DNA of 12,702 nucleotides, taken from positions 1-12,702 of the forward strand of contig JBEKHN010000030.1 in the NCBI GenBank assembly GCA_050012255.1, read 5' to 3'. This document shows positions 1-12,702 of this stretch, piece by piece (position 1 is the first letter of the stretch; each line of letters begins with the position of its first letter). The stretch comes from Candidatus Bathyarchaeia archaeon (GTDB lineage Archaea > Thermoproteota > Bathyarchaeia > Bathyarchaeales > Bathycorpusculaceae). Made by a program: the position numbers and the translations under genes. The notes below the pieces were generated by a model, which saw only the letters and a program-made list of their open reading frames with translations, ran no database searches and was not told the origin of the DNA.

Positions 1-72
1 GGAGTGGCCTGGGAAGAGAGACTCCTGGGTTTTCCTAAGGGATTCTAGAAAAGAAAGAACGGGGGGAGGAGG

Positions 73-102
73 ACACACACACACGCGCGCACGCACACGC
101 AC
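73..102. repeat. Alternating purine-pyrimidine microsatellite (RC)15: ACACACACACACGCGCGCACGCACACGCAC
   Basis: Directly visible 30-bp run of (A/G)C dinucleotides, flanked by purine-rich sequence. Confidence 0.9.
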
Positions 103-305
103 AGGGAGTGAGGGTGTGATAGTGAAGGACGAGGCAATGGAATTGACAAAATCGTCAATAAGATTTCGAGGTACAAGGGCCTGCTAACATCACAATTCCC
201 ATTTGGTGAACAAAGGACCGCGCGGCCTTGACATATGCATTCCATAGCTCACTGTATATTCGTTCCCTGAGATATTTGCGCTGATCGATAGCTCGAGCCT
301 CAAGC

Positions 306-2714
306 TCACAACTTTTCTCTTATATATTCAACCTGCATTTTCCAATTTGCGATTATGTTGTCCATGAATCTCACATTGCCGAATTCTGAAAAAGACAGCT
401 CAGGATTGCTCTTAAGCTCATCATCTTCCATTTGCTTCAGATACTTGAGGAACGTATGAGTACGTTCGAATCTTGCCTCCATGCGATCCTTCTTGTTCAG
501 TATAGAATCAGCGTTCAATCCTCTCCTCAGAGCTTTGAGGGTTTTTTCTTCACAGATCGGAGTATCCATAAATACCAAGTCAATGTAAGGAAAGCTGTGG
601 GCGAGTTCTTCAAGATAGTACAAACCAGTCGCAGTTATCTTGACATATTGGGCTGTCTTGAAACCTTCTTTGCTCTGGTTGTCGTATTCGACCAACCCGA
701 ATTGCGACAGTCTGCCCATGCAGTCTTCAATTGCCTTGCGGCTTATTCCGGCCACTTCAGCGTCTTCGATGATTTGGTTAATATCTATGAAACCCTTGTC
801 AAGTGCGATGAAGTAGTTCATCCTTTTGCTGAGATAAGCTAGAACTCTGAGGTGAAGAAAATAACTATACGTATGTTGAGGGTTTACGGAAAATACGTTC
901 ATTACACTACTGTGGGAGCTCGAGTAGTACTTGTAGTCTTCTAAAACTATGGATTTTATGATATGATGTAGAGGGATTTGATAATGCTTGTACTCTGGGG
1001 TTTCAGGTGGAAGGCTGGTCTCTACATCTATCATTTCTTCAACGTCTGTGTTCCCGGATGTCATGAAAGCGTTTATGAAGCGTAGCGCTTGTCTCATATC
1101 GCCCCCTGACACGTCATTTATGAATCGCAAAATCTCCTTTCCTACTCTTCGGCTCTCTCTTATAGAGTAGTTGATAATCGTGAAGAACATTTTGACAACA
1201 ATCCATTCACCCAGTGGGCTAACATCCAGCGATGCTCTTTCCCGTTCTTGCGTGGTTAGAAATTCCTGCGTATATTCGATTCTTTTCCGGATCAATTCCT
1301 CAAAGTTTGGTGATTCTATGTGAAACTTTGGCAAGTGATAGGCGTCCAACACGCCTGATCTAGTTGATTTGAAAAAAGACTCTTCACGAAGTGTGACAAA
1401 GGTAATAGTCTTGAACTTATTCGCAAAGTATTGAGAATATTCGAATACTCTTTCCTGATATTTTGGTGTAGTGTAACTATGTTGATCAACATTGTCTAGG
1501 ACGATTGCGATCGTATAGGATTGATATCTGAGCATGGAGAAGAACGCCAGCAGGCTTTCACCGTTAGCAGTGACAGAACTTACGCCAACAGCCTTCAGCG
1601 AGTCTTCCAACCTTTTCCTGTATCTCTCTTGATATTCATGAACAATACTGTCGAAGATGAAACCTTCAATCTCAGAAATATCAGGCGGGGAGACTCCGAA
1701 ATCAACATAGAACCATAGAATGTCTTTTCTGTCGGACATTACGACCTTGAAATAGTGATGGATAAAGGTTGTCTTGCCAGATCCCACACCTCCGAGAAGC
1801 ATGATGACCGAACCGAGCCCTCCTTCTTTTCTAAGAAATTCCCTGCATTTCTCAAAACTTAATTGGAACTCTCCGGCCTCTGTCTCCGTTTCTTTGAACC
1901 AGTTTATGTCGTAATGTTTTGCATAGTACGGCAACTTGTCAAAACTCGTACGAAGGACGTTGTCTGTGTTGCGAATCTGTTTTTGTCTTACGTAGCATTT
2001 CCTGAGGACATCAATCTGTGAATCCTTTGTTATGTCTTTAAAAATATAAGGAACAATCGTGGTCAAACGAGCCGCTAGCACATTCCAGCCAACGGTTGCA
2101 CTTTCGTTGTGAACAAAATCTAGGGGTCTCTTGAACTCTAACGAAACCAATTCTTTAGCCACGTTCTTTTTCAAGGAACCCCCAATCACCGCTGGCTTAC
2201 TCAAGATGCCAAAGAACAAAGAGAAATTGTTGACAATGTCTTCGACAGAAGAAAAGGCTACACAAGATCCTTCTCTCCACTTGCCAAATCGTCTAAAAGC
2301 TTCAAAAATAACAAATTGATGCCCATTACTGATAACCGCATATGTTGCTCCTATTTCTGTACAATACGCTTGAACTTGATTGATGGCTTCACTAATCTTT
2401 TTGTCTGTCGAGATAGCTCCATTTATCTTGTATCGTCTCTTCTTTAGAGCTTCAGAAATGATGAAAGAATAGCCGACTTTTTTTGCTTCAAGCACAAAAA
2501 CAGGTCGATCGTCAATCTTGAAAGTGTAGTCTATGAATCCTTTATGAATGTGTTCTTCTCTAGTTATGTCATCTTCAGTCCAGCCTAGGCAATCTTTAAA
2601 AATGGGATCTAAGATTTTCGCTCTTGAATCTGATTCCGACAAAGACAATTCTTCAAAAGTGCCCGCAAGCTTCTTGAAACACGCATATGCATTATCTATG
2701 TCAAGGGCAAGCAT
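306..2714 (-). CDS. Type I restriction HsdR-N-like PD-(D/E)xK nuclease fused to a P-loop/AAA+ ATPase and C-terminal winged helix (putative defence protein, 802 aa)
   Basis: N-terminus has the HSDR_N pattern: ESDSRAKILDPIF..LGW, FIDY...VLEAKK, QVQAYC, YAVISNG. Walker A is GGVGSGKT and Walker B is IAIVLDNVD. SGGDMRQAL resembles the Cdc6/RFC sensor-2 motif. C-terminal ISRKAIEDCMGRLSQFGLVE...VKITATG resembles a wHTH. Confidence 0.8.
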   Translation of the reverse strand: MLALDIDNAYACFKKLAGTFEELSLSESDSRAKILDPIFKDCLGWTEDDITREEHIHKGFIDYTFKIDDRPVFVLEAKKVGYSFIISEALKKRRYKINGAISTDKKISEAINQVQAYCTEIGATYAVISNGHQFVIFEAFRRFGKWREGSCVAFSSVEDIVNNFSLFFGILSKPAVIGGSLKKNVAKELVSLEFKRPLDFVHNESATVGWNVLAARLTTIVPYIFKDITKDSQIDVLRKCYVRQKQIRNTDNVLRTSFDKLPYYAKHYDINWFKETETEAGEFQLSFEKCREFLRKEGGLGSVIMLLGGVGSGKTTFIHHYFKVVMSDRKDILWFYVDFGVSPPDISEIEGFIFDSIVHEYQERYRKRLEDSLKAVGVSSVTANGESLLAFFSMLRYQSYTIAIVLDNVDQHSYTTPKYQERVFEYSQYFANKFKTITFVTLREESFFKSTRSGVLDAYHLPKFHIESPNFEELIRKRIEYTQEFLTTQERERASLDVSPLGEWIVVKMFFTIINYSIRESRRVGKEILRFINDVSGGDMRQALRFINAFMTSGNTDVEEMIDVETSLPPETPEYKHYQIPLHHIIKSIVLEDYKYYSSSHSSVMNVFSVNPQHTYSYFLHLRVLAYLSKRMNYFIALDKGFIDINQIIEDAEVAGISRKAIEDCMGRLSQFGLVEYDNQSKEGFKTAQYVKITATGLYYLEELAHSFPYIDLVFMDTPICEEKTLKALRRGLNADSILNKKDRMEARFERTHTFLKYLKQMEDDELKSNPELSFSEFGNVRFMDNIIANWKMQVEYIREKL

Positions 2715-3968: not shown

Positions 3969-4958
3969 TCAGCTTAGTCTCCGGAGTGCTCTCTGCGCTC
4001 TTCTGAGCTGTCGTTTGACCTTCCTGAGAGCCGTGCTCGGGCTCTGCTCTTCTGGAGCTGTGTCTTCTGCTTCCTTAGAGCCAAATACACTGCTCTGGAA
4101 AGGCCTGCTTGAGGTCCGCCTTCTCCTTTCTGCCTCTGATCTGGTCATTGGCGCTGCTCTGGCTTTTGCTTCAGCTGCTCTTCTTTCTCTCAATGCTTTC
4201 CATTCTTCAGCTGTGTATCCGGCGAATGCGGAAGGTTCTGATGGTTTTGCAGCCCTAACCGGTTCAGCTCCTGCAACTCCTATCCTTTGGAGCCTTGAGG
4301 CTTCGGCCAGTATTTGCTCTTCTGTTTGCCCTTCCGTTGTTGGAGTCCTTGGTGCGCCTTCTCTTCTTGCTTTCTCAAGCTCGTAGACGTCTCTTGCTTC
4401 GCCAGGAATCCTTGCAATTCTTCCTGCTTCCCTTGCTGTTTTTACTGCTGCCTTTTCTGCGAATGCTATACCTCTCTTTGCGTAGCTAGGTATCTTCTCC
4501 ACACCCGCCTTAATTGCTGAGGCGAACTTGTGTGCTCCACCTGAAATGGCGTGGGCTATTTCTGAAAGGCTCGGGTCGACTATGACTATCTCGTCAACGT
4601 CTTCGGGGTCGTATTTCATCATGTTCTTGTGCGCTATGAAGAAAGCTTGGTGCCAATTTTGTGCCATTAGAGGGATCTCTTCTCTGGTGCCGTCTTTGAG
4701 CTTTATACCGATCATGAAGCCCTTCACGCCTTTTGCTTCCATGTCGCGTTCTGCCTTAACCGCTTCAAGCTCTAGAGAAGTAACATTTGCCTTGTCTCTA
4801 TGCGCCATTGTCTTCCAGTGTCTTGGACTCATCGGTGCCTTCTGCCCGACTTGAAAATGCTGGCCGTCTTTATGGCGTGAGAGCCATGTGCCTGGTTTGT
4901 AGGCTCTGTGGACGTTTGCGGACAAATATTGGCGTTTGGTTCTTGTTTGGGCTGTCAT
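3969..4958 (-). CDS. Hypothetical basic Ala/Arg/Lys-rich protein (329 aa), virus-like
   Basis: Long ORF with ATGA overlap to the upstream gene, an N-terminal WLSRHKDGQHF motif and a low-complexity C-terminal half. Confidence 0.8.
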   Translation of the reverse strand: MTAQTRTKRQYLSANVHRAYKPGTWLSRHKDGQHFQVGQKAPMSPRHWKTMAHRDKANVTSLELEAVKAERDMEAKGVKGFMIGIKLKDGTREEIPLMAQNWHQAFFIAHKNMMKYDPEDVDEIVIVDPSLSEIAHAISGGAHKFASAIKAGVEKIPSYAKRGIAFAEKAAVKTAREAGRIARIPGEARDVYELEKARREGAPRTPTTEGQTEEQILAEASRLQRIGVAGAEPVRAAKPSEPSAFAGYTAEEWKALRERRAAEAKARAAPMTRSEAERRRRTSSRPFQSSVFGSKEAEDTAPEEQSPSTALRKVKRQLRRAQRALRRLS

Positions 4959-5206
4959 TTGCGGAGCCCCCGGAGTGTTTTGGCTAAACGAGCAGCCTTA
5001 GCAATCGATCCGGACTTCTCAGCGACGCTTCTCAGCACACTTGACTTGATCCGAAGTCTGCCTTTAGCGCCTGATTCAAAGCTGGCCGATCCGTATTCTC
5101 TCCGGATGTATTTTCTCAGTCTGCATCTGCGCTTCTTTGGTATAGCCTTCTGGATCCATTTCTTCCTGTTAGTGCCGTACCTGTTTTGCCTGTGCTTCTC
5201 TCGCAT
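4955..5206 (-). CDS. Small highly basic protein (83 aa, MREKH...), resembling small basic phage proteins of the KKWIQKAI...ARLAxTL type
   Basis: ATG at 5206 lies 2 nt after the stop of the 5209-5391 ORF, so it is a better start than 5341. KKWIQKAI and AKAARLAKTLRGL recall a phage hypothetical family (from memory, unverified). Confidence 0.7.
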   Translation of the reverse strand: MREKHRQNRYGTNRKKWIQKAIPKKRRCRLRKYIRREYGSASFESGAKGRLRIKSSVLRSVAEKSGSIAKAARLAKTLRGLRK

Positions 5207-5208
5207 TT

Positions 5209-5391
5209 TCAAAAGCTCCCCCGGATTGCGTTGCGTCTCTTGCCGTGCATTAGCTTCGACTTGCGCCTGATCTTCGTGGTGCCCAGTTTCTCGAGACCTT
5301 TCCATGGGTTTTTGAACTTCTGTCCGTGCCTCTTTGCCCATTTGTAATCGCGTTGGTATTTCCGTTGTTTTCTCGGATTTTTGTAGACCAT
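5209..5391 (-). CDS. Small highly basic protein (60 aa), first gene of leftward operon
   Basis: GAGGT RBS at 5404-5400 and TATA box at 5436-5429 upstream; very K/R-rich. Confidence 0.75.
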   Translation of the reverse strand: MVYKNPRKQRKYQRDYKWAKRHGQKFKNPWKGLEKLGTTKIRRKSKLMHGKRRNAIRGSF

Positions 5392-6266: not shown

Positions 6267-6667
6267 TGACCACACAGACAATCCCATTATGGAGACCGAA
6301 GACTCTAACTGGACGACCGATAGGTGGAAAGCAAGGTAGATTCCGCGTTTTGGAGTTGACAGTTTACTTCGACTACGTCGCTGGCAAAGGAGAAAGCCAG
6401 GACAGAGAATTCGAGTTCACGTTGAGAATTCCGTTGACGAAGAGAAACAGCCGAAGGAACATGTTGTTCTGGGAATTCGTAGCCGCAACCAAAATGGAAG
6501 CAGTGGGAATCCACATTCAAGGCGAAAACTGGGACGAGGGAATCGTTGGATACCGATACACCGGGAGGACAAATAGTTACAAACCGCGATACATTTGCTT
6601 AAACAAAAAGACGAACTGGTGCATGCCCAAGTCCGGCGGTTGGGGCACTCTGTGGTGGCCATGGTGA
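6266..6667 (+). CDS. Hypothetical protein (133 aa), aromatic/Trp-rich
   Basis: Translationally coupled within the operon; no recognisable family. Confidence 0.75.
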   Translation: MTTQTIPLWRPKTLTGRPIGGKQGRFRVLELTVYFDYVAGKGESQDREFEFTLRIPLTKRNSRRNMLFWEFVAATKMEAVGIHIQGENWDEGIVGYRYTGRTNSYKPRYICLNKKTNWCMPKSGGWGTLWWPW

Positions 6668-6981
6668 TAACCGTCGACATAGATTCTCCCAGCAAAGCAA
6701 AACTGTTGTCAACATACCGCAAAGCGCTGAGCTACGGAAGAACAAAGGTGACAAAAACGGCACACGGAGGTTTTCATCTCAGGATCGACAGCGACATTGA
6801 AGACCCACTGGAGATAATCCGGATCCGCAGACTTCTCGGAGACGACCCAAAGCGCATAGAGCACGACAAAATCCTCATACTTCTTGGACATCCTGAGCTG
6901 GCAAACAGACTCTTTGAAGCCAAGAAAGTGAACGGGAAGTACGTAAAAGAAAGACCGTTTGAAATGGAGGGAGACAAATGA
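6661..6981 (+). CDS. Minimal archaeo-eukaryotic primase (AEP/PrimPol)-like protein (~106 aa)
   Basis: ITVDID (motif I hhhDxD), KTAHGGFHL (motif II sxH), LLGDD (candidate motif III). ATG 6661/GTG 6664 overlaps the upstream stop. Confidence 0.55.
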   Translation: MVITVDIDSPSKAKLLSTYRKALSYGRTKVTKTAHGGFHLRIDSDIEDPLEIIRIRRLLGDDPKRIEHDKILILLGHPELANRLFEAKKVNGKYVKERPFEMEGDK

Positions 6982-7610: not shown

Positions 7611-7856
7611 CTAAATCCCGTTCGGCTTCGCGGTCTCTTTTTTCTTTGTGAAATATCGCTGGAGCAATGCCCGGTATTTTTCAGGATTTAGGCCACGCCA
7701 GAGATAACTCCGGACTAATCGCGGGCTTATGTCCAATTTCTGTGCAATTTCCTCAACACTGGCACCTTTTGTGTGCATTTGACAGACACGCAATATTTTG
7801 CCTTTTTTCTTACGTTTGGTCTTAGGTTCTTCAATCTTGGCGGGGCACACTTTCAC
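7611..7856 (-). CDS. Helix-turn-helix DNA-binding protein (start probably GTG 7856 or 7850 rather than 7952)
   Basis: ASVEEIAQKLDISPRLVRSYLWR is an HTH. A minus-strand TTTATATA at 7917-7910 lies inside the longer ORF, favouring a later start. Confidence 0.65.
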   Translation of the reverse strand: MKVCPAKIEEPKTKRKKKGKILRVCQMHTKGASVEEIAQKLDISPRLVRSYLWRGLNPEKYRALLQRYFTKKKETAKPNGI

Positions 7857-7909
7857 TTTCCAATTATATCCCCCCCTGCTTTTTGAAGCGCCAGCCCCAT
7901 GCAAACGGC

Positions 7910-7983
7910 TATATAAAGCATTAGCCTCGCGGCCAATAATGGTGAGTTGCAACCGCGATTCATCAAAGCATTTAATTTATAAG
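7910..7983. promoter_or_regulatory. Divergent TATA boxes for the HTH gene (-) and the three-gene operon (+)
   Basis: TTTATATA on - strand at 7917-7910; TTTATAAG on + strand at 7976-7983, about 24 bp before ATG 8007 (leaderless spacing). Confidence 0.55.
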
Positions 7984-8006
7984 CGCAATTGCAGAATGTG
8001 ACAGTG

Positions 8007-8579
8007 ATGAAGATGGCTAAGAATACAGAAGATGACTTGATAAAGGCAGCGATTCAACGAGCTATAGATATCACCAAAGACATCGAGGAACCATATCGTT
8101 TAAAGGCTTTTGAAATTGTGTTTTCGAAGCTCTTGGCCCCCATCGCTGAACACAAAACAGAGACGCTTGGGACGACCAGAAGCAAAGGCGGAACTGCAAA
8201 TTTGGGAGCTAGAATCGAAGAGTTTGCAACCAAATGCGCTCTATCCGTGGAACAACTAAAGAACATCTTTGACTTTAAGGAGGATGGACCACTTTTTACT
8301 GTTCCTCTTCAGGGAAGTCATGCTGAAAAGCAGGTTCTGGTTTCCAGATACTTGTTGACTGCATATCATGAAGCATACGGAAAAGAATGGGCAAGCCTGA
8401 ATCAAATCCTAGCAGAACATGGTGTAGGTTCACTTGAGAACTTGGCCTTTAATCTCAAGAAACACTCAGAAATCTTTAGACAGAGAGGAAGAAAGAAGGC
8501 AAGTGAATACAAACTGGCCGATGCGGCAGAGCGCGAGACTTTTCACATGATTCATGAGCTTGGTACTGGCGGGACCTAA
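8007..8579 (+). CDS. Hypothetical protein with probable C-terminal winged helix (start ATG 8007 or 8013)
   Basis: Helical N-terminus (EPYRLKAFEIVFSKLL); C-terminal SLNQILAEHGV...NLAFNLKK...FRQRGRKKASEYKL is wHTH-like. Confidence 0.7.
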   Translation: MKMAKNTEDDLIKAAIQRAIDITKDIEEPYRLKAFEIVFSKLLAPIAEHKTETLGTTRSKGGTANLGARIEEFATKCALSVEQLKNIFDFKEDGPLFTVPLQGSHAEKQVLVSRYLLTAYHEAYGKEWASLNQILAEHGVGSLENLAFNLKKHSEIFRQRGRKKASEYKLADAAERETFHMIHELGTGGT

Positions 8580-8603
8580 TACTCGCTAACGTAGTAAGGT
8601 GTC

Positions 8604-9020
8604 ATGATGTCAGAAGAAAAATCTCGGTTCAGAATCAAGAAAGGAGAAACAGAGATAGAATATGAAGGCCAATCGAAGGAAGTCAATGAGCGATACAGAG
8701 AGGCTTTTGAATGGTTGAAGTCTTTGCGTCCTGAGGATACTGAGGAAAAGCAGTCAGAGGAGAAGGGAACAGGCCTAGAGGAAAAGCGTGGCGGAGCGAG
8801 AAAAGAACTGTTTTCGCCCAAAATCGATGAATTAATCAAAGGGAATTATTTCAAACTACCAGACAAGAGAAAAGTCTCTGATGTGATGAAAACCCTGATG
8901 GAAAAGGGACTGCCGACGAGCGGTAAAGATGAGGCAGTATTGAATTCCTTGAAACGAAGGCTTGGCAAGACTCTGAAAGGAACAAAAGAAGGAAAAGAAT
9001 GGGTGTTTTGGACTGAATAA
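8604..9020 (+). CDS. Hypothetical protein: N-terminal FRIKKGETEIEYEG module, linker and winged helix (138 aa)
   Basis: AAGGTG RBS; C-terminal IDELIKGNYFKL..KVSDVMKTLMEKG..VLNSLKR..KEGKEWVFW is wHTH-like. Confidence 0.75.
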   Translation: MMSEEKSRFRIKKGETEIEYEGQSKEVNERYREAFEWLKSLRPEDTEEKQSEEKGTGLEEKRGGARKELFSPKIDELIKGNYFKLPDKRKVSDVMKTLMEKGLPTSGKDEAVLNSLKRRLGKTLKGTKEGKEWVFWTE

Positions 9021-9022
9021 GA

Positions 9023-10000
9023 ATGTCTATTGAGCTTCCCAACCTTATTGGAAAGGAAAAGCAGCATTACGATTCACTCGAAGAACTTTATGCGTATTCT
9101 TGCGGAAGAAAGAAAGACGAGGCGCAGCTTTGCAGCCAAATAAATGAAACCATTGATGATTGGGACAAAATGATGGGAGGCCGAAGTAATCTCAAGACCT
9201 CGGTTGCTCCTTATTCTCAAGCATTGCTCAAGAGTGACCACCGTAAAGCTCGAGAACTCTACTTCTTCCTAAGCCCAGTCTTTTTCTACATTCACGTACT
9301 CCTTGAAATGGAAAGAAAGGCTTGGAGAAATGCTATGACTTCGAGCGGCATATTTTGTGAAAGAATCGTCAGAAACTTGCTACAAGAGGTTGACAGAATA
9401 AACTCGTCAAAGATCTGGGAAGAATTGTCAAAGGACCCGAAGTTTGATAACCGCAATGGTAGACTTCGAAAGGAATTAGAAGGCAAAAAGATCGACCAAA
9501 CTGACACCTTATGCAGCTTGTTGAAGAGCATTTATTTCACTAGAACTCACACAGGACCGCATGATGTTCCACCTCCAGAGCCCATTCAAGCGGATTTATC
9601 TGCAAGATTATGCCTGCCAGCTTACGTAAAGTATCTTGAAACTCTCATAGAGCTCGGCAATGACCTAACCAGTGATTTCAACAGTTATGTCTCCTTCTTC
9701 TACAGTCTAACTAGGACAAACGTGGCTTTGATATTTGGAAAGGAGGAAGTTCGGAAACCACCCAAAGAGGTTATTTTCGAAATCTACATGCAAGGGTTCT
9801 TCAAACTAGGAAAGACGTTTGGTGAGACGAAGAAAAAATTCCGAGAAGCAGGCTACGACCCTGGTGATGCTCGACTTGCTAATGAACTGGAAAAGCTATC
9901 CAAAGGTAATAAGGCGTTTCTAACGCGACGAGGAAGACGGGGATTTTACGTCTATCATGAACGCTATCCACCTGACGACTCTTTCAAGATGGCAATATGA
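9023..10000 (+). CDS. Putative HEPN-domain protein with C-terminal winged helix (325 aa)
   Basis: AMTSSGIFCERIV (HEPN N-terminal E helix) and R174-x5-H180 (RTHTGPH). C-terminal QGFFKLGKTFGE...LTRRGRRGFYVY is wHTH-like. Confidence 0.55.
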   Translation: MSIELPNLIGKEKQHYDSLEELYAYSCGRKKDEAQLCSQINETIDDWDKMMGGRSNLKTSVAPYSQALLKSDHRKARELYFFLSPVFFYIHVLLEMERKAWRNAMTSSGIFCERIVRNLLQEVDRINSSKIWEELSKDPKFDNRNGRLRKELEGKKIDQTDTLCSLLKSIYFTRTHTGPHDVPPPEPIQADLSARLCLPAYVKYLETLIELGNDLTSDFNSYVSFFYSLTRTNVALIFGKEEVRKPPKEVIFEIYMQGFFKLGKTFGETKKKFREAGYDPGDARLANELEKLSKGNKAFLTRRGRRGFYVYHERYPPDDSFKMAI

Positions 10001-10118: not shown

Positions 10119-11135
10119 ATGAAGACAAGAACGGCGAAGTTATTTTTGACCGACTATGGTTCTTTCCTGGGCCGGGCCGACGGATGCCTAACGGTAAGGC
10201 ATAGAGACAAAAAGATAGAGAAATATCCTCTGTTTGAAAACGAGATCTCAGAGATTCAACTTAATATGGGCAACTCCGCATCTGTTACTGCTCTGACTAC
10301 GGCTGCAATGTGGGGCATTGATTGTGTTTTCCTTACTTCGCGCGGAAATCCTGTTGCTTATATGAAAAGCCTATCCGATGATTCGCATGTTAAGACCCGG
10401 ATCTCGCAATATGAGGCCATAAAGAACGGCAAAGGATTTTCAATCGCCAAAGAAATTGTGTTGGCTAAGATCGCAGGACAAAACCAGGTCTTGAGAAAAT
10501 ACGGCCTGAGACAGCACGATATGATCCAAATCAAAAAGAAGGTAGCTGAGGCCAAATCAAAGAACGCACTGCTGACAATTGAAGGCCACTGTGCCGAGAG
10601 CTATTTCAACCAGATCTTCAAGTTGATGCCCAAACCTATGAAGATCGAGCGGAGAAGGACTTTCAAGGCTTACGACGGCACGAATAACGTATTCAATCTC
10701 GGCTATGAAATTCTCCGTTGGAAGGTATATCGCGCAATTATCAGATCGAAACTTGAGCCGTTTTTGGGATTCCTCCACAGCGAGCAGTTCTCAAAGCCGT
10801 CTTTGGTGTGCGACGTAATGGAGATCTATAGATTTTTGATTGACGACTTTCTGATAGACTATTGCAAGAAACTCCGGAAGAAGGATTTCGTACGCCAAAA
10901 CCAGGAATACTCATCAAACAAGAAGGGGCAGCGAGAGTTTCTCAGGAAGGAGGCTGCCAAGGACATGATAAGCAAGCTGAACTCCTTCTTTGAGTCAATG
11001 GTCGAAATACCGCGAATCAAGCACGGAAACAGGCAGACAATAGAAACTCTGATCAACGAAGAGGCATTGCTACTGGCCAGATATTTGCGGAGCGAAACTA
11101 ATTCATGGGTTCCAAGATGTGCCCGATTAGTGTGA
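10119..11135 (+). CDS. cas1: Cas1 endonuclease/integrase, stand-alone (possibly casposase-like), 338 aa
   Basis: Beta-rich N-domain (LFLTDYGSFLG, IDCVFLTSRG); RISQY; catalytic E155 (TIEG), H220 (LGFLH) and E235 (SLVCDVMEIYR); NNVFNLGY. GAGGT RBS at 10107-10111 and T-rich TATA-like sequence at 10076-10084. Confidence 0.95.
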   Translation: MKTRTAKLFLTDYGSFLGRADGCLTVRHRDKKIEKYPLFENEISEIQLNMGNSASVTALTTAAMWGIDCVFLTSRGNPVAYMKSLSDDSHVKTRISQYEAIKNGKGFSIAKEIVLAKIAGQNQVLRKYGLRQHDMIQIKKKVAEAKSKNALLTIEGHCAESYFNQIFKLMPKPMKIERRRTFKAYDGTNNVFNLGYEILRWKVYRAIIRSKLEPFLGFLHSEQFSKPSLVCDVMEIYRFLIDDFLIDYCKKLRKKDFVRQNQEYSSNKKGQREFLRKEAAKDMISKLNSFFESMVEIPRIKHGNRQTIETLINEEALLLARYLRSETNSWVPRCARLV

Positions 11136-11295
11136 TTATTTTTGGTAAAATTAATCGCACTGTCTGGCGGATTCGATCAATGTATGTGGATATTTTTTGT
11201 AAAATTAAATACACTAACTGAACCCGTGATCCATTTATTTTCCCGGAGCGATTTTAGATTAGTGCGTTTATTTTTAGTAAAGTTCATATCACTGT
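11125..11295. repeat. Three degenerate palindromic ~33-39-bp repeats directly after cas1
   Basis: 33-bp cores: 11129-11161 AGTGTGATTATTTTTGGTAAAATTAATCGCACT, 11183-11215 TATGTGGATATTTTTTGTAAAATTAAATACACT, 11261-11293 AGTGCGTTTATTTTTAGTAAAGTTCATATCACT. R1 and R3 match at 32/39 over 11125-11163 vs 11257-11295; the R1 and R2 cores match at 25/33. Confidence 0.8.
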
Positions 11296-11313: not shown

Positions 11314-11829
11314 ATGCCCCCTATAATGCCGCTCAAGACGCAGAAAGCAAACATCAGAAGAATGATCCGAAAAGTCAATCCTGAAATGGAAGACGTAGAT
11401 CTCGGGTTCCTTCAGAAGGTCCATTATCCTGAGAACATTCGGATTGCCGAGGATCAGCTCGGTATTACTCTGCGACGTCCCAAAGAAGAGAAGCCTCGAA
11501 AGGGCCCTCGAAGATCGCTTGACGTCTACTACAATCGTGATGGAACCCTATGTGCAGATGCGGTGGTCGTGGTCCAGAAACACGCGCCGTTGGACAAAAG
11601 GGCAAAAGTGCTCAAGTACTACAACCACCCGTTTACATATTCATATGGCCGGATACAACTCACTGTCCCTGAAGAGCTGATTAACACGCAAGCCAGGGTT
11701 CATCTAGAGTTCCCAAACGCTCCGGAGATCAAAACCAAGAAGAGACGGGGCAGGAACCAACTCAAACACTATCACATTGAGGAGGGTGGACACTTCGGAA
11801 AGAAGGCAAAACAATGGAGAAGATTTTGA
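11314..11829 (+). CDS. Hypothetical basic protein (171 aa); YGRIQLTVPEELI segment is reminiscent of AbrB/DUF2080-like swapped-hairpin DNA-binding domains
   Basis: Open frame of 171 codons in the same orientation as cas1; the domain guess is weak. Confidence 0.65.
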   Translation: MPPIMPLKTQKANIRRMIRKVNPEMEDVDLGFLQKVHYPENIRIAEDQLGITLRRPKEEKPRKGPRRSLDVYYNRDGTLCADAVVVVQKHAPLDKRAKVLKYYNHPFTYSYGRIQLTVPEELINTQARVHLEFPNAPEIKTKKRRGRNQLKHYHIEEGGHFGKKAKQWRRF

Positions 11830-12552: not shown

Positions 12553-12702
12553 GAGTTAATGAACCATCTGATAAGGCGTGCGCCAGCCTGTAACTTCAAA
12601 AAACGGCAAGGCGCACAACTGCTTCGCTCTGCCTTCCTTCCGCTCGAGGCTTTTTCCCCTGTCATTCCAGATCTTCCTGACGGTATCCCAAGCCACCCCA
12701 AG

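What the first reader, a model, noticed from the sequence alone, without database searches (positions are those of the whole stretch)
10119..11295. Solo Cas1 whose stop codon sits inside the first of three palindromic repeats: casposon-like end or proto-CRISPR
Seen in sequence: cas1 keeps its E155/H220/E235 catalytic triad, has its own promoter and RBS, and has no cas2, cas4 or effector genes in the window. Three degenerate copies of a 33-bp dyad (AGTG..TTATTTT-NNN-AAAATTAA..CACT) start within its last codons, separated by unrelated 21- and 45-bp gaps. R1 is a near-perfect hairpin (14 of 15 pairs, including one G-T). The right half of R2 (11201-11217) is also complementary to the left half of R3 (11259-11275). 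Established: casposons use a Cas2-independent Cas1 as integrase, their terminal repeats can be palindromic and have been proposed as CRISPR repeat ancestors, and transposase stop codons often run into terminal repeats. Inference: these are Cas1 binding or integration sites, either a subterminal element end or a primitive or decayed mini-array.
Basis: partly seen in the sequence, partly recalled or inferred. Interest (0 to 1): 0.85.

Follow-up and report, generated by a model that had tools for sequence, protein, structure and literature searches.

The report
Solo-Cas1 mobile element with regulatory dyads
A Cas1 gene without any CRISPR partner sits on a mobile element of an uncultured archaeon; the three repeats behind it look like a gene-control region, not the element's end or a primitive CRISPR array, although related elements do have casposon-like ends.

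Summary
cas1 (10119-11135) is intact and solo. Three diverged copies of a 33-39-bp unit follow it, and the TGA stop lies inside copy 1. Only copy 1 is a strong hairpin.

This Cas1 belongs to a large family found almost only in Bathyarchaeia. The family shows no Cas2, CRISPR array or PolB nearby. It rides on small elements with HTH proteins and a mini primase-like protein.

In relatives, Cas1-bearing segments end in matched inverted repeats of simple sequence. These abut a conserved 15-bp core, GGGTAAAGTTTTATC, that is directly repeated in 15 of 19 cases. Homology between loci breaks exactly at that core. That is casposon-like architecture without a polymerase.

The window is a whole 12.7-kb contig whose ends stop in such repeat DNA. 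It holds no core itself.

The dyads are absent behind 123 other cas1 genes. One related element (L086) has a single copy, elsewhere and at one end only. They carry T5-T6 tracts and a BRE/TATA-like half-site 30 nt before the next ORF.

My best reading is a terminator plus promoter/operator module (about 0.5). Cas1-site mimicry or an origin of replication remain possible. A mini-CRISPR is very unlikely.

The parts
10119..11135 (+). Solo cas1, 338 aa, catalytic E155/H220/D232/E235 intact
   Evidence: It scores below every CRISPR-subtype cut-off in NCBIfam.
11125..11163 (.). Dyad copy R1. A strong hairpin that contains the cas1 stop (11133-11135) and a T5 tract (11139-11143)
   Evidence: fold z -6.1
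11179..11217 (.). Dyad copy R2 (69% to R1), with a T6 tract. A weak palindrome
11257..11295 (.). Dyad copy R3 (82% to R1), with a T5 tract. Its right half AGTAAAGTTCATATC is the best match in the window to the family's 15-bp core. It lies 30 nt before the ATG at 11314
   Evidence: The promoter reading is inference.
11314..11829 (+). ORF of 171 aa, basic, with no known family. It has a relative in L083 (32% identity) and a truncated copy in L013
11987..12472 (-). Winged-HTH protein (ArsR/Sso10a-like), a candidate DNA binder
   Evidence: Pfam HTH_45 2.3e-5; NCBIfam Sso10a_fam 1.8e-7, below its cut-off
7611..7952 (-). 113-aa HTH protein. Its C-terminal half is conserved next to cas1 in the 9 closest related loci
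   Evidence: (cluster 15)
12603..12700 (.). Right-end segment, 85% identical to C19:24757-24852. In C19 it is followed by about 115 nt of simple sequence and then a core copy. Probably the subterminal part of the unassembled right end
61..131 (.). Left-end simple-sequence tract (GGAGG / ACAC / GCGC). It is homologous to the tract that directly follows a core in C28:15753-15800 and C34:3377
6595..6981 (+). 128-aa ORF with VDID and GGFHLRID motifs, a possible mini primase-polymerase. Conserved in L083, L084 and L091
   Evidence: The motif reading is recalled, and BLASTP shows no link to cluster 4.

Best explanation
The window is a whole contig carrying one member of a family of small integrative mobile elements, almost certainly of Bathyarchaeia. 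Their only recombinase-like gene is a Cas2-independent Cas1. In relatives these elements end in inverted repeats made of simple sequence, and those repeats abut a conserved 15-bp core, GGGTAAAGTTTTATC, usually present as a direct repeat on both sides. That is the casposon arrangement, but without a DNA polymerase B. In this contig the ends were not assembled.

The three dyads are not those ends. They are three diverged copies of a roughly 39-bp AT-centred unit that fill the 178-bp spacer between cas1 and the next gene. I read them as a transcription-control module:
- The T5-T6 runs (the first lies 4 nt after the cas1 stop) act as archaeal oligo-T terminators for cas1.
- The right half of R3 (AGTAAAG + TTCATATC) acts as BRE/TATA for a leaderless transcript starting at the ATG of ORF 11314.
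- The dyad symmetry and the triplication serve as operators for an element-encoded HTH protein.

Shown: the anatomy, the uniqueness of the motif, its lack of conservation behind other cas1 genes, and the end structure in relatives.
Inferred: the terminator, promoter and operator roles, and Cas1 as the integrase.
For: Family and context.
- Cas1 homologs are many: 2055 proteins at E<=0.001, and the 120 listed are 55-100% identical.
- 76 of 79 genome loci carry Bathyarchaeia titles. Genomes often hold several copies, many of them truncated.
- No PolB, Cas2 or Cas4 appears among the conserved neighbour clusters.
- Three minimal 3.6-4.0-kb elements (L098, L124, L137) hold Cas1 and no other recombinase-like ORF.

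Ends in relatives.
- Of 120 full-length cas1 ORFs, 19 have a core (2 or fewer mismatches) on both sides within the DNA held. 15 of the 19 are direct repeats.
- TIRs of 49-60 nt lie directly inside the cores in L137, L086, L098 and L124.
- True end pairs score a median of 15 against 8 for 342 mismatched pairs. The first 12 nt next to the cores are 11/12 identical against 6/12.
- Homology between loci breaks exactly at the core.
- There are 50 exact cores in 1.79 Mb of Cas1 loci, against 0 for the reversed control.

Dyads.
- They are unique in the genome.
- They are absent behind 123 other cas1 genes, and occur once in L086 at another place.
- T5/T6 tracts lie inside each copy.
- R3 is the top match to the core in the window.
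- TTTTAT and TTTATA peak 41-45 nt before the ATGs of long ORFs in this genome, so the core's TTTTAT behaves like a TATA hexamer here.
- In L083 the homolog of ORF 11314 is also preceded by a cluster of AT-centred dyads, of different sequence.
Against: - There are no transcript data, so the terminator and promoter roles are unproven. The -30 geometry and the likeness to BRE/TATA rest on recalled knowledge of the SSV1 T6 promoter.
- In L086 the single dyad lies 158 nt before the next ORF, which has its own TTATATTTT box. There the dyad is not that gene's promoter.
- Three copies are more than a terminator or a promoter needs.
- Against Cas1 as integrase at the core: the window has no core at 3 or fewer mismatches. 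This genome has 27 exact cores but only 3 cas1 copies.
- In a 300-genome sample, only 1 of 13 core-bearing genomes also has this Cas1, and 1 of 29 Cas1-bearing genomes has an exact core.
- 4 of 19 core pairs are inverted.
- No empty site was found.
- A 15-bp direct repeat is also what att-site recombination would leave.
Confidence: 0.5

Rival explanations
1. The dyads are binding sites for Cas1 itself, alone or with its HTH partner. They would be diverged internal copies of the family's integration core, kept for autoregulation or synapsis, or left as relics of an old junction.
For: - R3 is the best match to the 15-bp core in the whole window, and R1 also scores among the top sites.
- R1 has GTGTG/CGCAC arms around an AT-rich centre, like the GT-arm/core/CA-arm layout of real sites.
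- L084, whose Cas1 is 68% identical, has a palindrome over its cas1 stop that holds TAAAACTTTA, the centre of the reverse-complemented core.
- 4 of 124 homologs have an AT palindrome within 45 nt of the stop, against about 0.4 expected from the rate in the loci.
- In L086 the dyad is subterminal.
Against: - The match to the core is weak (score 9 of 15, with a gap) and none is exact.
- The dyad occurs at one end only in L086.
- It is not conserved behind most cas1 genes.
- A functional target inside the element would invite self-integration.
Confidence: 0.2
2. The dyads are iterons of the element's replication origin, bound by its initiator (a mini primase-like or HTH protein).
For: - Three direct copies of an AT-centred unit lie in a non-coding stretch.
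- Family elements carry a small conserved protein with an AEP-like fold. Its AF2 model has pLDDT 95. The top VIA rows include LigD polymerase, AsfvPrimPol, RepB' and S-2L PrimPol at Z 5.5-6.1, and SV40 T-antigen at Z 5.9.
- The dyad sits at a different place in L086 and in a non-coding region, as a movable ori would.
Against: - The spacings of 54 and 78 bp are not in helical phase.
- The copies are only 69-82% alike.
- Fold matches are below Z 8, which the tool warns may be a common arrangement.
- No sequence link was found between the window's ORF 6595-6981 and that protein cluster.
Confidence: 0.15
3. The dyads are a primitive or decayed mini-CRISPR array, with repeats R1-R3 and two spacers.
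For: cas1 lies directly upstream, and there are three repeats with unrelated intervening sequence.
Against: - The repeats are 69-82% alike and the gaps are unequal (21 and 45 nt).
- No Cas2, effector or other array is present in the genome.
- None of the 159 Cas1 loci has an array.
- Rfam finds no CRISPR direct-repeat family in the window.
- Homologs lack the dyads.
Confidence: 0.03

Closest known systems
Casposons, families 1-4 (Krupovic et al. 2014, PMC4046053; passages read)
   Same: - A Cas2-independent Cas1 with the full catalytic set, on a mobile element.
- In relatives, TIRs are flanked by a direct repeat of 15 bp. My recollection is that casposon target-site duplications are 14-15 bp.
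- Insertion is site-specific, and tandem or clustered insertions occur.
   Different: - There is no family B polymerase in the window or among the conserved neighbours.
- Cas1 scores better against a CRISPR Cas1 (4n06, 105.7 bits) than against the M. mazei casposase (6opm, 76.7 bits).
- The TIR tips are simple-sequence repeats.
- The repeated core is the same 15-mer across many genomes, and it is not a tRNA or EF-2 gene end.
Proposed 'family 5' casposases from hot springs (PMC9755687; passages and section 18 read)
   Same: Archaeal Cas1-solo with active-site residues, mostly without a DNA polymerase, close to subtype I-A Cas1, with TIRs in some contigs and variable cargo of hypothetical genes.
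   Different: That paper reports six sequences and, in the passages and section I read, no target site or duplication. Whether it is the same clade could not be tested: the sequences are in supplements, which are closed, and the word Bathyarchae does not occur in the text.
CRISPR adaptation module and array
   Same: A Cas1 fold and active site. If the family model is right, each insertion duplicates a short target, so a genome accumulates many copies of one short repeat.
   Different: There is no Cas2, no array and no effector, and Cas1 scores below all subtype cut-offs. The 'repeat' is 15 bp, and the inserts are 0.1-12 kb elements, not 30-40-bp spacers.
Archaeal promoters (BRE/TATA) and oligo-T terminators (recalled general knowledge; SSV1 T6 promoter recalled)
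   Same: The right halves of the dyads, and the 15-bp core, read purine-rich GTAAAG followed by a T/A-rich octamer. T5-T6 runs directly follow the cas1 stop.
   Different: The triplication and dyad symmetry are not features of a plain promoter or terminator. No transcript ends were available.

Membership tests
Casposon | Cas1 homolog with intact catalytic residues, not linked to CRISPR-cas | tested here: met
Casposon | Family B DNA polymerase inside the element (self-synthesizing) | tested here: not met
   No PolB hit in the 12 window ORFs scanned with Pfam or in the 8 neighbour proteins, one from each of 8 neighbour clusters, scanned. The largest window ORF is an ATPase.
Casposon | Terminal inverted repeats | tested here: inconclusive
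   Window: the ends are not assembled, and only a 13-nt inverted likeness of the contig tips was seen. Relatives: met in 4 of 19 with 49-60-nt TIRs, and most of the others have matched 11-18-nt simple-repeat tips.
Casposon | Target-site duplication of about 14-15 bp | tested here: inconclusive
   Relatives: a 15-bp core flanks both sides, direct in 15 of 19. No empty site was found, so duplication as opposed to att recombination is not shown. Window: no core.
Casposon | Cas1 groups with casposases in a phylogeny | not tested
   No casposase reference sequences could be brought in. As a proxy only: 6opm scores 76.7 bits against 105.7 for 4n06.
CRISPR-Cas adaptation module | cas2 next to cas1, with a CRISPR array nearby | tested here: not met
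   Cas2 found in 0 of 1 (G000) and 0 of 3 other genomes. Arrays found in 0 of 159 loci and none in G000 (a naive exact-word finder).
CRISPR-Cas adaptation module | Cas1 reaches a subtype-specific model cut-off | tested here: not met
   All 8 subtype models score below their cut-offs. Only the generic TIGR00287 passes.
CRISPR array (for R1-R3) | Near-identical repeats with spacers of similar length | tested here: not met
   69% and 82% identity, with gaps of 21 and 45 nt. No Rfam CRISPR-DR hit.
'Family 5' casposase (PMC9755687) | Membership of that clade | not testable with these tools
Fusellovirus-like spindle virus | Small major capsid proteins with two hydrophobic helices (VP1/VP3) | tested here: not met
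   None of the 16 window ORFs has a hydrophobic 19-mer above 1.6. The only hit is VP2-like, at 29.8 bits against a cut-off of 27.

The most novel reading that the evidence does not exclude
This Cas1 family is the integrase of polymerase-less, primase-bearing, casposon-like elements. They insert at a conserved, promoter-like 15-bp core (GGGTAAAGTTTTATC) set between GT-rich and CA-rich arms, and they duplicate that core with each insertion. Genomes would thereby build up clusters of one short repeat separated by inserted DNA: 27 exact copies in this genome, spaced 0.1-3.3 kb apart in islands. That would be a living analogue of the proposed step between casposons and CRISPR arrays. The window's three dyads would be diverged copies of that target, kept inside the element as Cas1/HTH binding sites.
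Probability: 0.2. Interest if true: 0.85.

Novelty: new variant of a known kind. Interest (0 to 1): 0.6.

Why it matters
Casposons are the proposed ancestors of the CRISPR adaptation machinery, but the known families are few and all self-synthesizing.

A large, apparently active family of Cas1-only integrative elements would widen what Cas1 integrases are known to mobilise. It has many truncated and multi-copy members, and sequence homology between loci breaks exactly at the core. If the duplication is confirmed, the family would give a natural example of a short repeat multiplied by Cas1-type insertion. It would also offer a compact Cas1 with a defined 15-bp target for in vitro work.

The dyads themselves matter less. 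They are probably ordinary element-specific control DNA.

I found nothing in print on these Bathyarchaeia elements or on the core. Four searches came back empty or irrelevant: casposon+Bathyarchaeota, casposon+Bathyarchaeia, the core string, and Cas1+Bathyarchaeota+transposon+TIR. The Bathyarchaeia virus paper PMC10848311 (passages read) reports no Cas1-bearing element. The library lacks most subscription journals.

Tried and rejected
- tRNA and Rfam scans of the window found nothing, so there is no tRNA attachment site and no known RNA family.
- Searching viral contigs with Cas1 gave no relatives, either with the single protein or with the profile.
- Searching genome contigs with the single protein gave none. 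The profile was needed.
- Scanning viral contigs for the core gave 117 single hits, almost all in unrelated contexts, about what chance gives for a 15-mer in a collection that size by my own rough estimate (no tool gave an expectation). Only L171, L179, L228 and L253 show the simple-sequence arms. This did not tell att-site recombination from transposition.
- ORF 11314 stays unexplained. It was not found in 300 other genomes of the class. The word-indexed search returned only itself. The Atlas gave nothing usable. AF2 on a 3-row alignment gave pLDDT 37.6, too poor to search with.
- The profile of neighbour cluster 4 gave nothing meaningful against PDB sequences. Foldseek against the PDB gave no match at E<=0.001.
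- Reads: one DNA run holds the stretch, possibly the source sample. Its contig equals the window plus about 30 nt at each end. There were no joints and no circular junction. No RNA holder is listed.
- The empty-site search among all held flanks found 0 triples.
- The naive CRISPR finder flagged four places (C1:173695, C19:21870, L005:13170, L013:65). All are coding beta-helix repeats.
- The core is not a plain mRNA promoter at a fixed distance. Distances to the next ORF range from 11 to 391 nt, and 6 of 41 cores have none within 400 nt.
- The bacterial promoter/terminator scanner was not used, because the host is archaeal.
Full report
**What is there.**

The window is the whole of contig C30 (12,702 bp, 45.5% G+C). 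The genome has 38 contigs, is 2.35 Mb and is 98.5% complete.

The cas1 ORF (10119-11135, 338 aa) matches Pfam Cas_Cas1 at 4.3e-51 and the generic NCBIfam cas1 model at 186 bits. It stays below the cut-off of all eight subtype models. E155, H220, D232 and E235 are invariant in an alignment of 36 family members. They align with the catalytic motifs of the solved A. fulgidus Cas1.

Directly behind the gene, the repeat finder reports three copies of a 39-nt unit at 11125-11163, 11179-11217 and 11257-11295. They are 69% and 82% identical to the first copy. The TGA stop at 11133-11135 lies inside copy 1.

R1 is a strong hairpin (14 pairs, z -6.1). R2 and R3 are not (z -1.2 and +0.8). R2's right half pairs with R3's left half. 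At 9 or fewer mismatches of 33, the unit occurs nowhere else in the genome.

**The Cas1 is solo and belongs to a large family.**

- The genome has no Cas2 match.
- My exact-word array finder found only coding beta-helix repeats.
- Three other genomes that carry the family also lack Cas2 (0 of 3).
- None of 159 Cas1 loci has an array.

Homologs are abundant. There are 2055 proteins at E<=0.001, and the 120 listed are 55-100% identical. 76 of 79 genome loci carry Bathyarchaeia titles. Genomes often have several copies, and many copies are truncated or carry stops. That is the pattern of a mobile gene. This genome has three: C30, C28 (49% identity) and a fragment in C1.

Clustering of 5476 ORFs from the loci shows these conserved neighbours:
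- a 131-aa basic protein;
- a roughly 160-aa protein (cluster 4);
- a zinc-ribbon/wHTH protein;
- a P-loop ATPase;
- wHTH proteins overlapping the cas1 start;
- a 113-aa HExxH protein directly downstream.

Eight neighbour proteins from these clusters, scanned with Pfam, gave only weak hits below the cut-offs, to domains of unknown function. No PolB, Cas2 or Cas4 appears.

Cluster 4 folds with pLDDT 95. Its best structural matches are AEP primase-polymerases and viral origin-binding domains, at Z 5-6.4. That is suggestive only.

**Where the elements really end.**

Downstream of many homologs I saw GCGCGC tracts (16 of 124, against a 4% background) and microsatellite-like tracts.

In this genome those tracts surround a 15-nt core, GGGTAAAGTTTTATC. 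There are 27 exact copies and 14 with one mismatch. A GT-rich simple repeat nearly always lies on one side and a CA-rich one on the other. The copies cluster in low-G+C islands and small contigs, and they flank both other cas1 copies.

The same exact core occurs 50 times in the 1.79 Mb of Cas1 loci from other samples, against 0 for the reversed control.

Of 120 full-length cas1 ORFs, 19 have a core on both sides within the DNA held, and 15 of those pairs are direct repeats. Directly inside the cores lie inverted repeats:
- 49-60 nt, near-perfect, in L137 (3.6 kb), L098 (3.7 kb), L124 (4.0 kb) and L086 (11.8 kb);
- 11-18 nt of the same simple-repeat unit in most of the others.

As a control I paired left ends with right ends of other elements. 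True pairs have a median score of 15 against 8. The first 12 nt are 11/12 identical against 6/12.

The three minimal elements hold Cas1 and no other recombinase-like gene.

Homology between independent loci stops exactly at the core. G000 C8:25733 and L124:13079 share 95% identity over 123 nt up to the core and nothing after it. L087 and L142 share an outer flank at 99% identity but hold different Cas1 elements inside.

This is casposon-like architecture without a polymerase.

Caveats:
- Cores far outnumber cas1 genes.
- Four pairs are inverted.
- No empty site was found.
- In a sample of 300 other genomes of the class, the exact core (13 genomes) and this Cas1 (29 genomes) coincide in only one. 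MAG binning of small repeat-rich contigs may explain this, but it counts against a simple link.
- Direct 15-bp repeats would also be left by att-site recombination.

**The window's own ends.**

C30 has no core at 3 or fewer mismatches.

Its left tract (61-131) is homologous to the tract that follows a core in C28 and C34. Its last 98 nt match a segment of C19 that runs into about 115 nt of simple sequence and then a core.

The only run holding the DNA gives the same contig with about 30 nt more at each end and no joint.

I conclude that the contig is an element of this family whose tips were not assembled. cas1 ends 1.57 kb from the right tip. That fits the enrichment of simple-sequence tracts 0-1.25 kb downstream of cas1 in relatives.

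**What the dyads are.**

- They are not the ends and not conserved with cas1. At 10 or fewer mismatches of 33, no copy lies in the downstream DNA of the 123 other cas1 genes.
- The only clear copy in 159 loci (8 mismatches of 33) is L086:549-581. It is a single unit about 250 nt inside the left end of an element that shares several genes with the window, and it has no partner at the right end.
- L084 has a more distant palindrome over its own cas1 stop.
- Each copy holds a T5 or T6 run. The first lies 4 nt after the stop.
- R3's right half (AGTAAAG TTCATATC) is the best match to the 15-bp core in the window. It starts 30 nt before the ATG of ORF 11314, which has no Shine-Dalgarno-like sequence.
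- From recalled knowledge of archaeal promoters, this is the geometry of BRE/TATA for a leaderless mRNA.
- In this genome TTTTAT and TTTATA peak 41-45 nt upstream of long ORFs.
- In L083 the only full-length relative of ORF 11314 (32% identity) also follows a cluster of AT-centred dyads of unrelated sequence.
- The element encodes two HTH proteins that could bind such sites.

I therefore favour a terminator plus promoter/operator module, at about 0.5.

The likeness to the core keeps open the possibility that Cas1 or its partner binds them (about 0.2). An iteron-type origin is also possible (about 0.15). A mini-CRISPR is very unlikely (about 0.03).

**Comparison and novelty.**

Against casposons, the Cas1, the TIRs and the 15-bp flanking repeat (in relatives) agree. 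The defining polymerase is missing, and Cas1 scores closer to CRISPR Cas1 than to the solved casposase.

A 2022 study proposed a polymerase-less 'family 5' of casposases near subtype I-A, from six hot-spring contigs. I could not test whether this is the same clade, because supplements are closed.

I found no paper on Bathyarchaeia Cas1 elements or on the core. The Bathyarchaeia virus survey describes a spindle virus with a tyrosine recombinase, not Cas1.

**Verdict.**

It is a new variant of a known kind. Interest is moderate to high because of the element family and its 15-bp junction, not because of the dyads.

Noticed in passing
G000 contigs, e.g. C21:17287-31721 (10 copies), C34:3377-8180 (5), C8:20846-26627, C28:6481-6495 and 15738-15752, C1:235400-238021: A 15-nt core, GGGTAAAGTTTTATC, occurs 27 times exactly and 14 times with one mismatch. 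It nearly always lies between a GT-rich and a CA-rich simple repeat, and it clusters in low-G+C islands. It is exact in 14 of 301 genomes of the class, against 2 hits for the reversed control.
   Followed up: yes
G000 C8:25733 vs L124:13079; L087:140-154 vs L142:108-122: Sequence homology between independent loci runs up to the core and stops there. Two different Cas1 elements abut the same outer flank, which is 99% identical.
   Followed up: partly
L137:403-843 (-) and 44 relatives (neighbour cluster 4): A small (about 150 aa) protein conserved next to solo cas1. It has nearly invariant D19, D21 and F58 and a majority-consensus YHVVF motif. Its AF2 model has pLDDT 95. The best fold matches are AEP primase-polymerases and viral origin-binding domains at Z 5-6.4, which is not decisive.
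   Followed up: partly
window 4955-5341 (-): A basic 128-aa ORF just passes the Pfam Fusello_VP2_Capsid cut-off (29.8 against 27 bits) and matches phrog_15706. No ORF in the window has the hydrophobic helices of spindle-virus capsid proteins, so a virus assignment is not justified.
   Followed up: partly
window 306-2714 (-): An 802-aa ORF with an HSDR_N-like N-terminus and a P-loop/STAND-like ATPase. It matches phrog_14719 strongly (3.2e-87). Its function is unknown.
   Followed up: no
window 7989-10000 (+): Three ORFs (196, 138 and 325 aa) with no family and no relatives in the held loci. They separate cas1 from the HTH gene, which in the 9 closest related loci lies upstream of cas1, directly so (a median of 107 nt) in most. 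This looks like inserted cargo.
   Followed up: no
window 1-30 and 12673-12702: The two contig tips are weakly inverted copies of each other (GGAGTGGCCTGGG against the reverse complement GGGGTGGCTTGGG). A related GCCACTCC motif lies beside the terminal tracts in C19 and C23. Its meaning is unknown.
   Followed up: partly
L083:3689-3800: A cluster of AT-centred dyads of the form CCGG-TTTTAA-CGG lies 100-200 nt upstream of the only full-length relative of ORF 11314. The layout is the same as in the window, but the sequence differs.
   Followed up: partly
L013:6256-6495: A truncated copy of the ORF 11314 gene (81% identical over its last 58 aa) begins directly at a core copy with a simple-sequence tract, so a junction cuts the gene.
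   Followed up: partly
downstream of cas1 in L083, L088, L004, L005, L087, L093, L094, C28 and others: Alternating GCGCGC tracts occur within 150 nt of the cas1 stop in 16 of 124 homologs, against 4% of random 150-nt windows of the same loci.
   Followed up: partly
L228 (IMG/VR contig, 23 kb) around 412-426: Two core copies in inverted orientation lie almost back to back, with CACACA arms, in a contig filed as viral. L171, L179 and L253 also carry cores in true context.
   Followed up: no
G000 C19:21780-22120, C1:173600-173950; L005:13170; L013:65: 69-nt periodic repeats that mimic CRISPR spacing are coding repeats of beta-helix proteins.
   Followed up: yes
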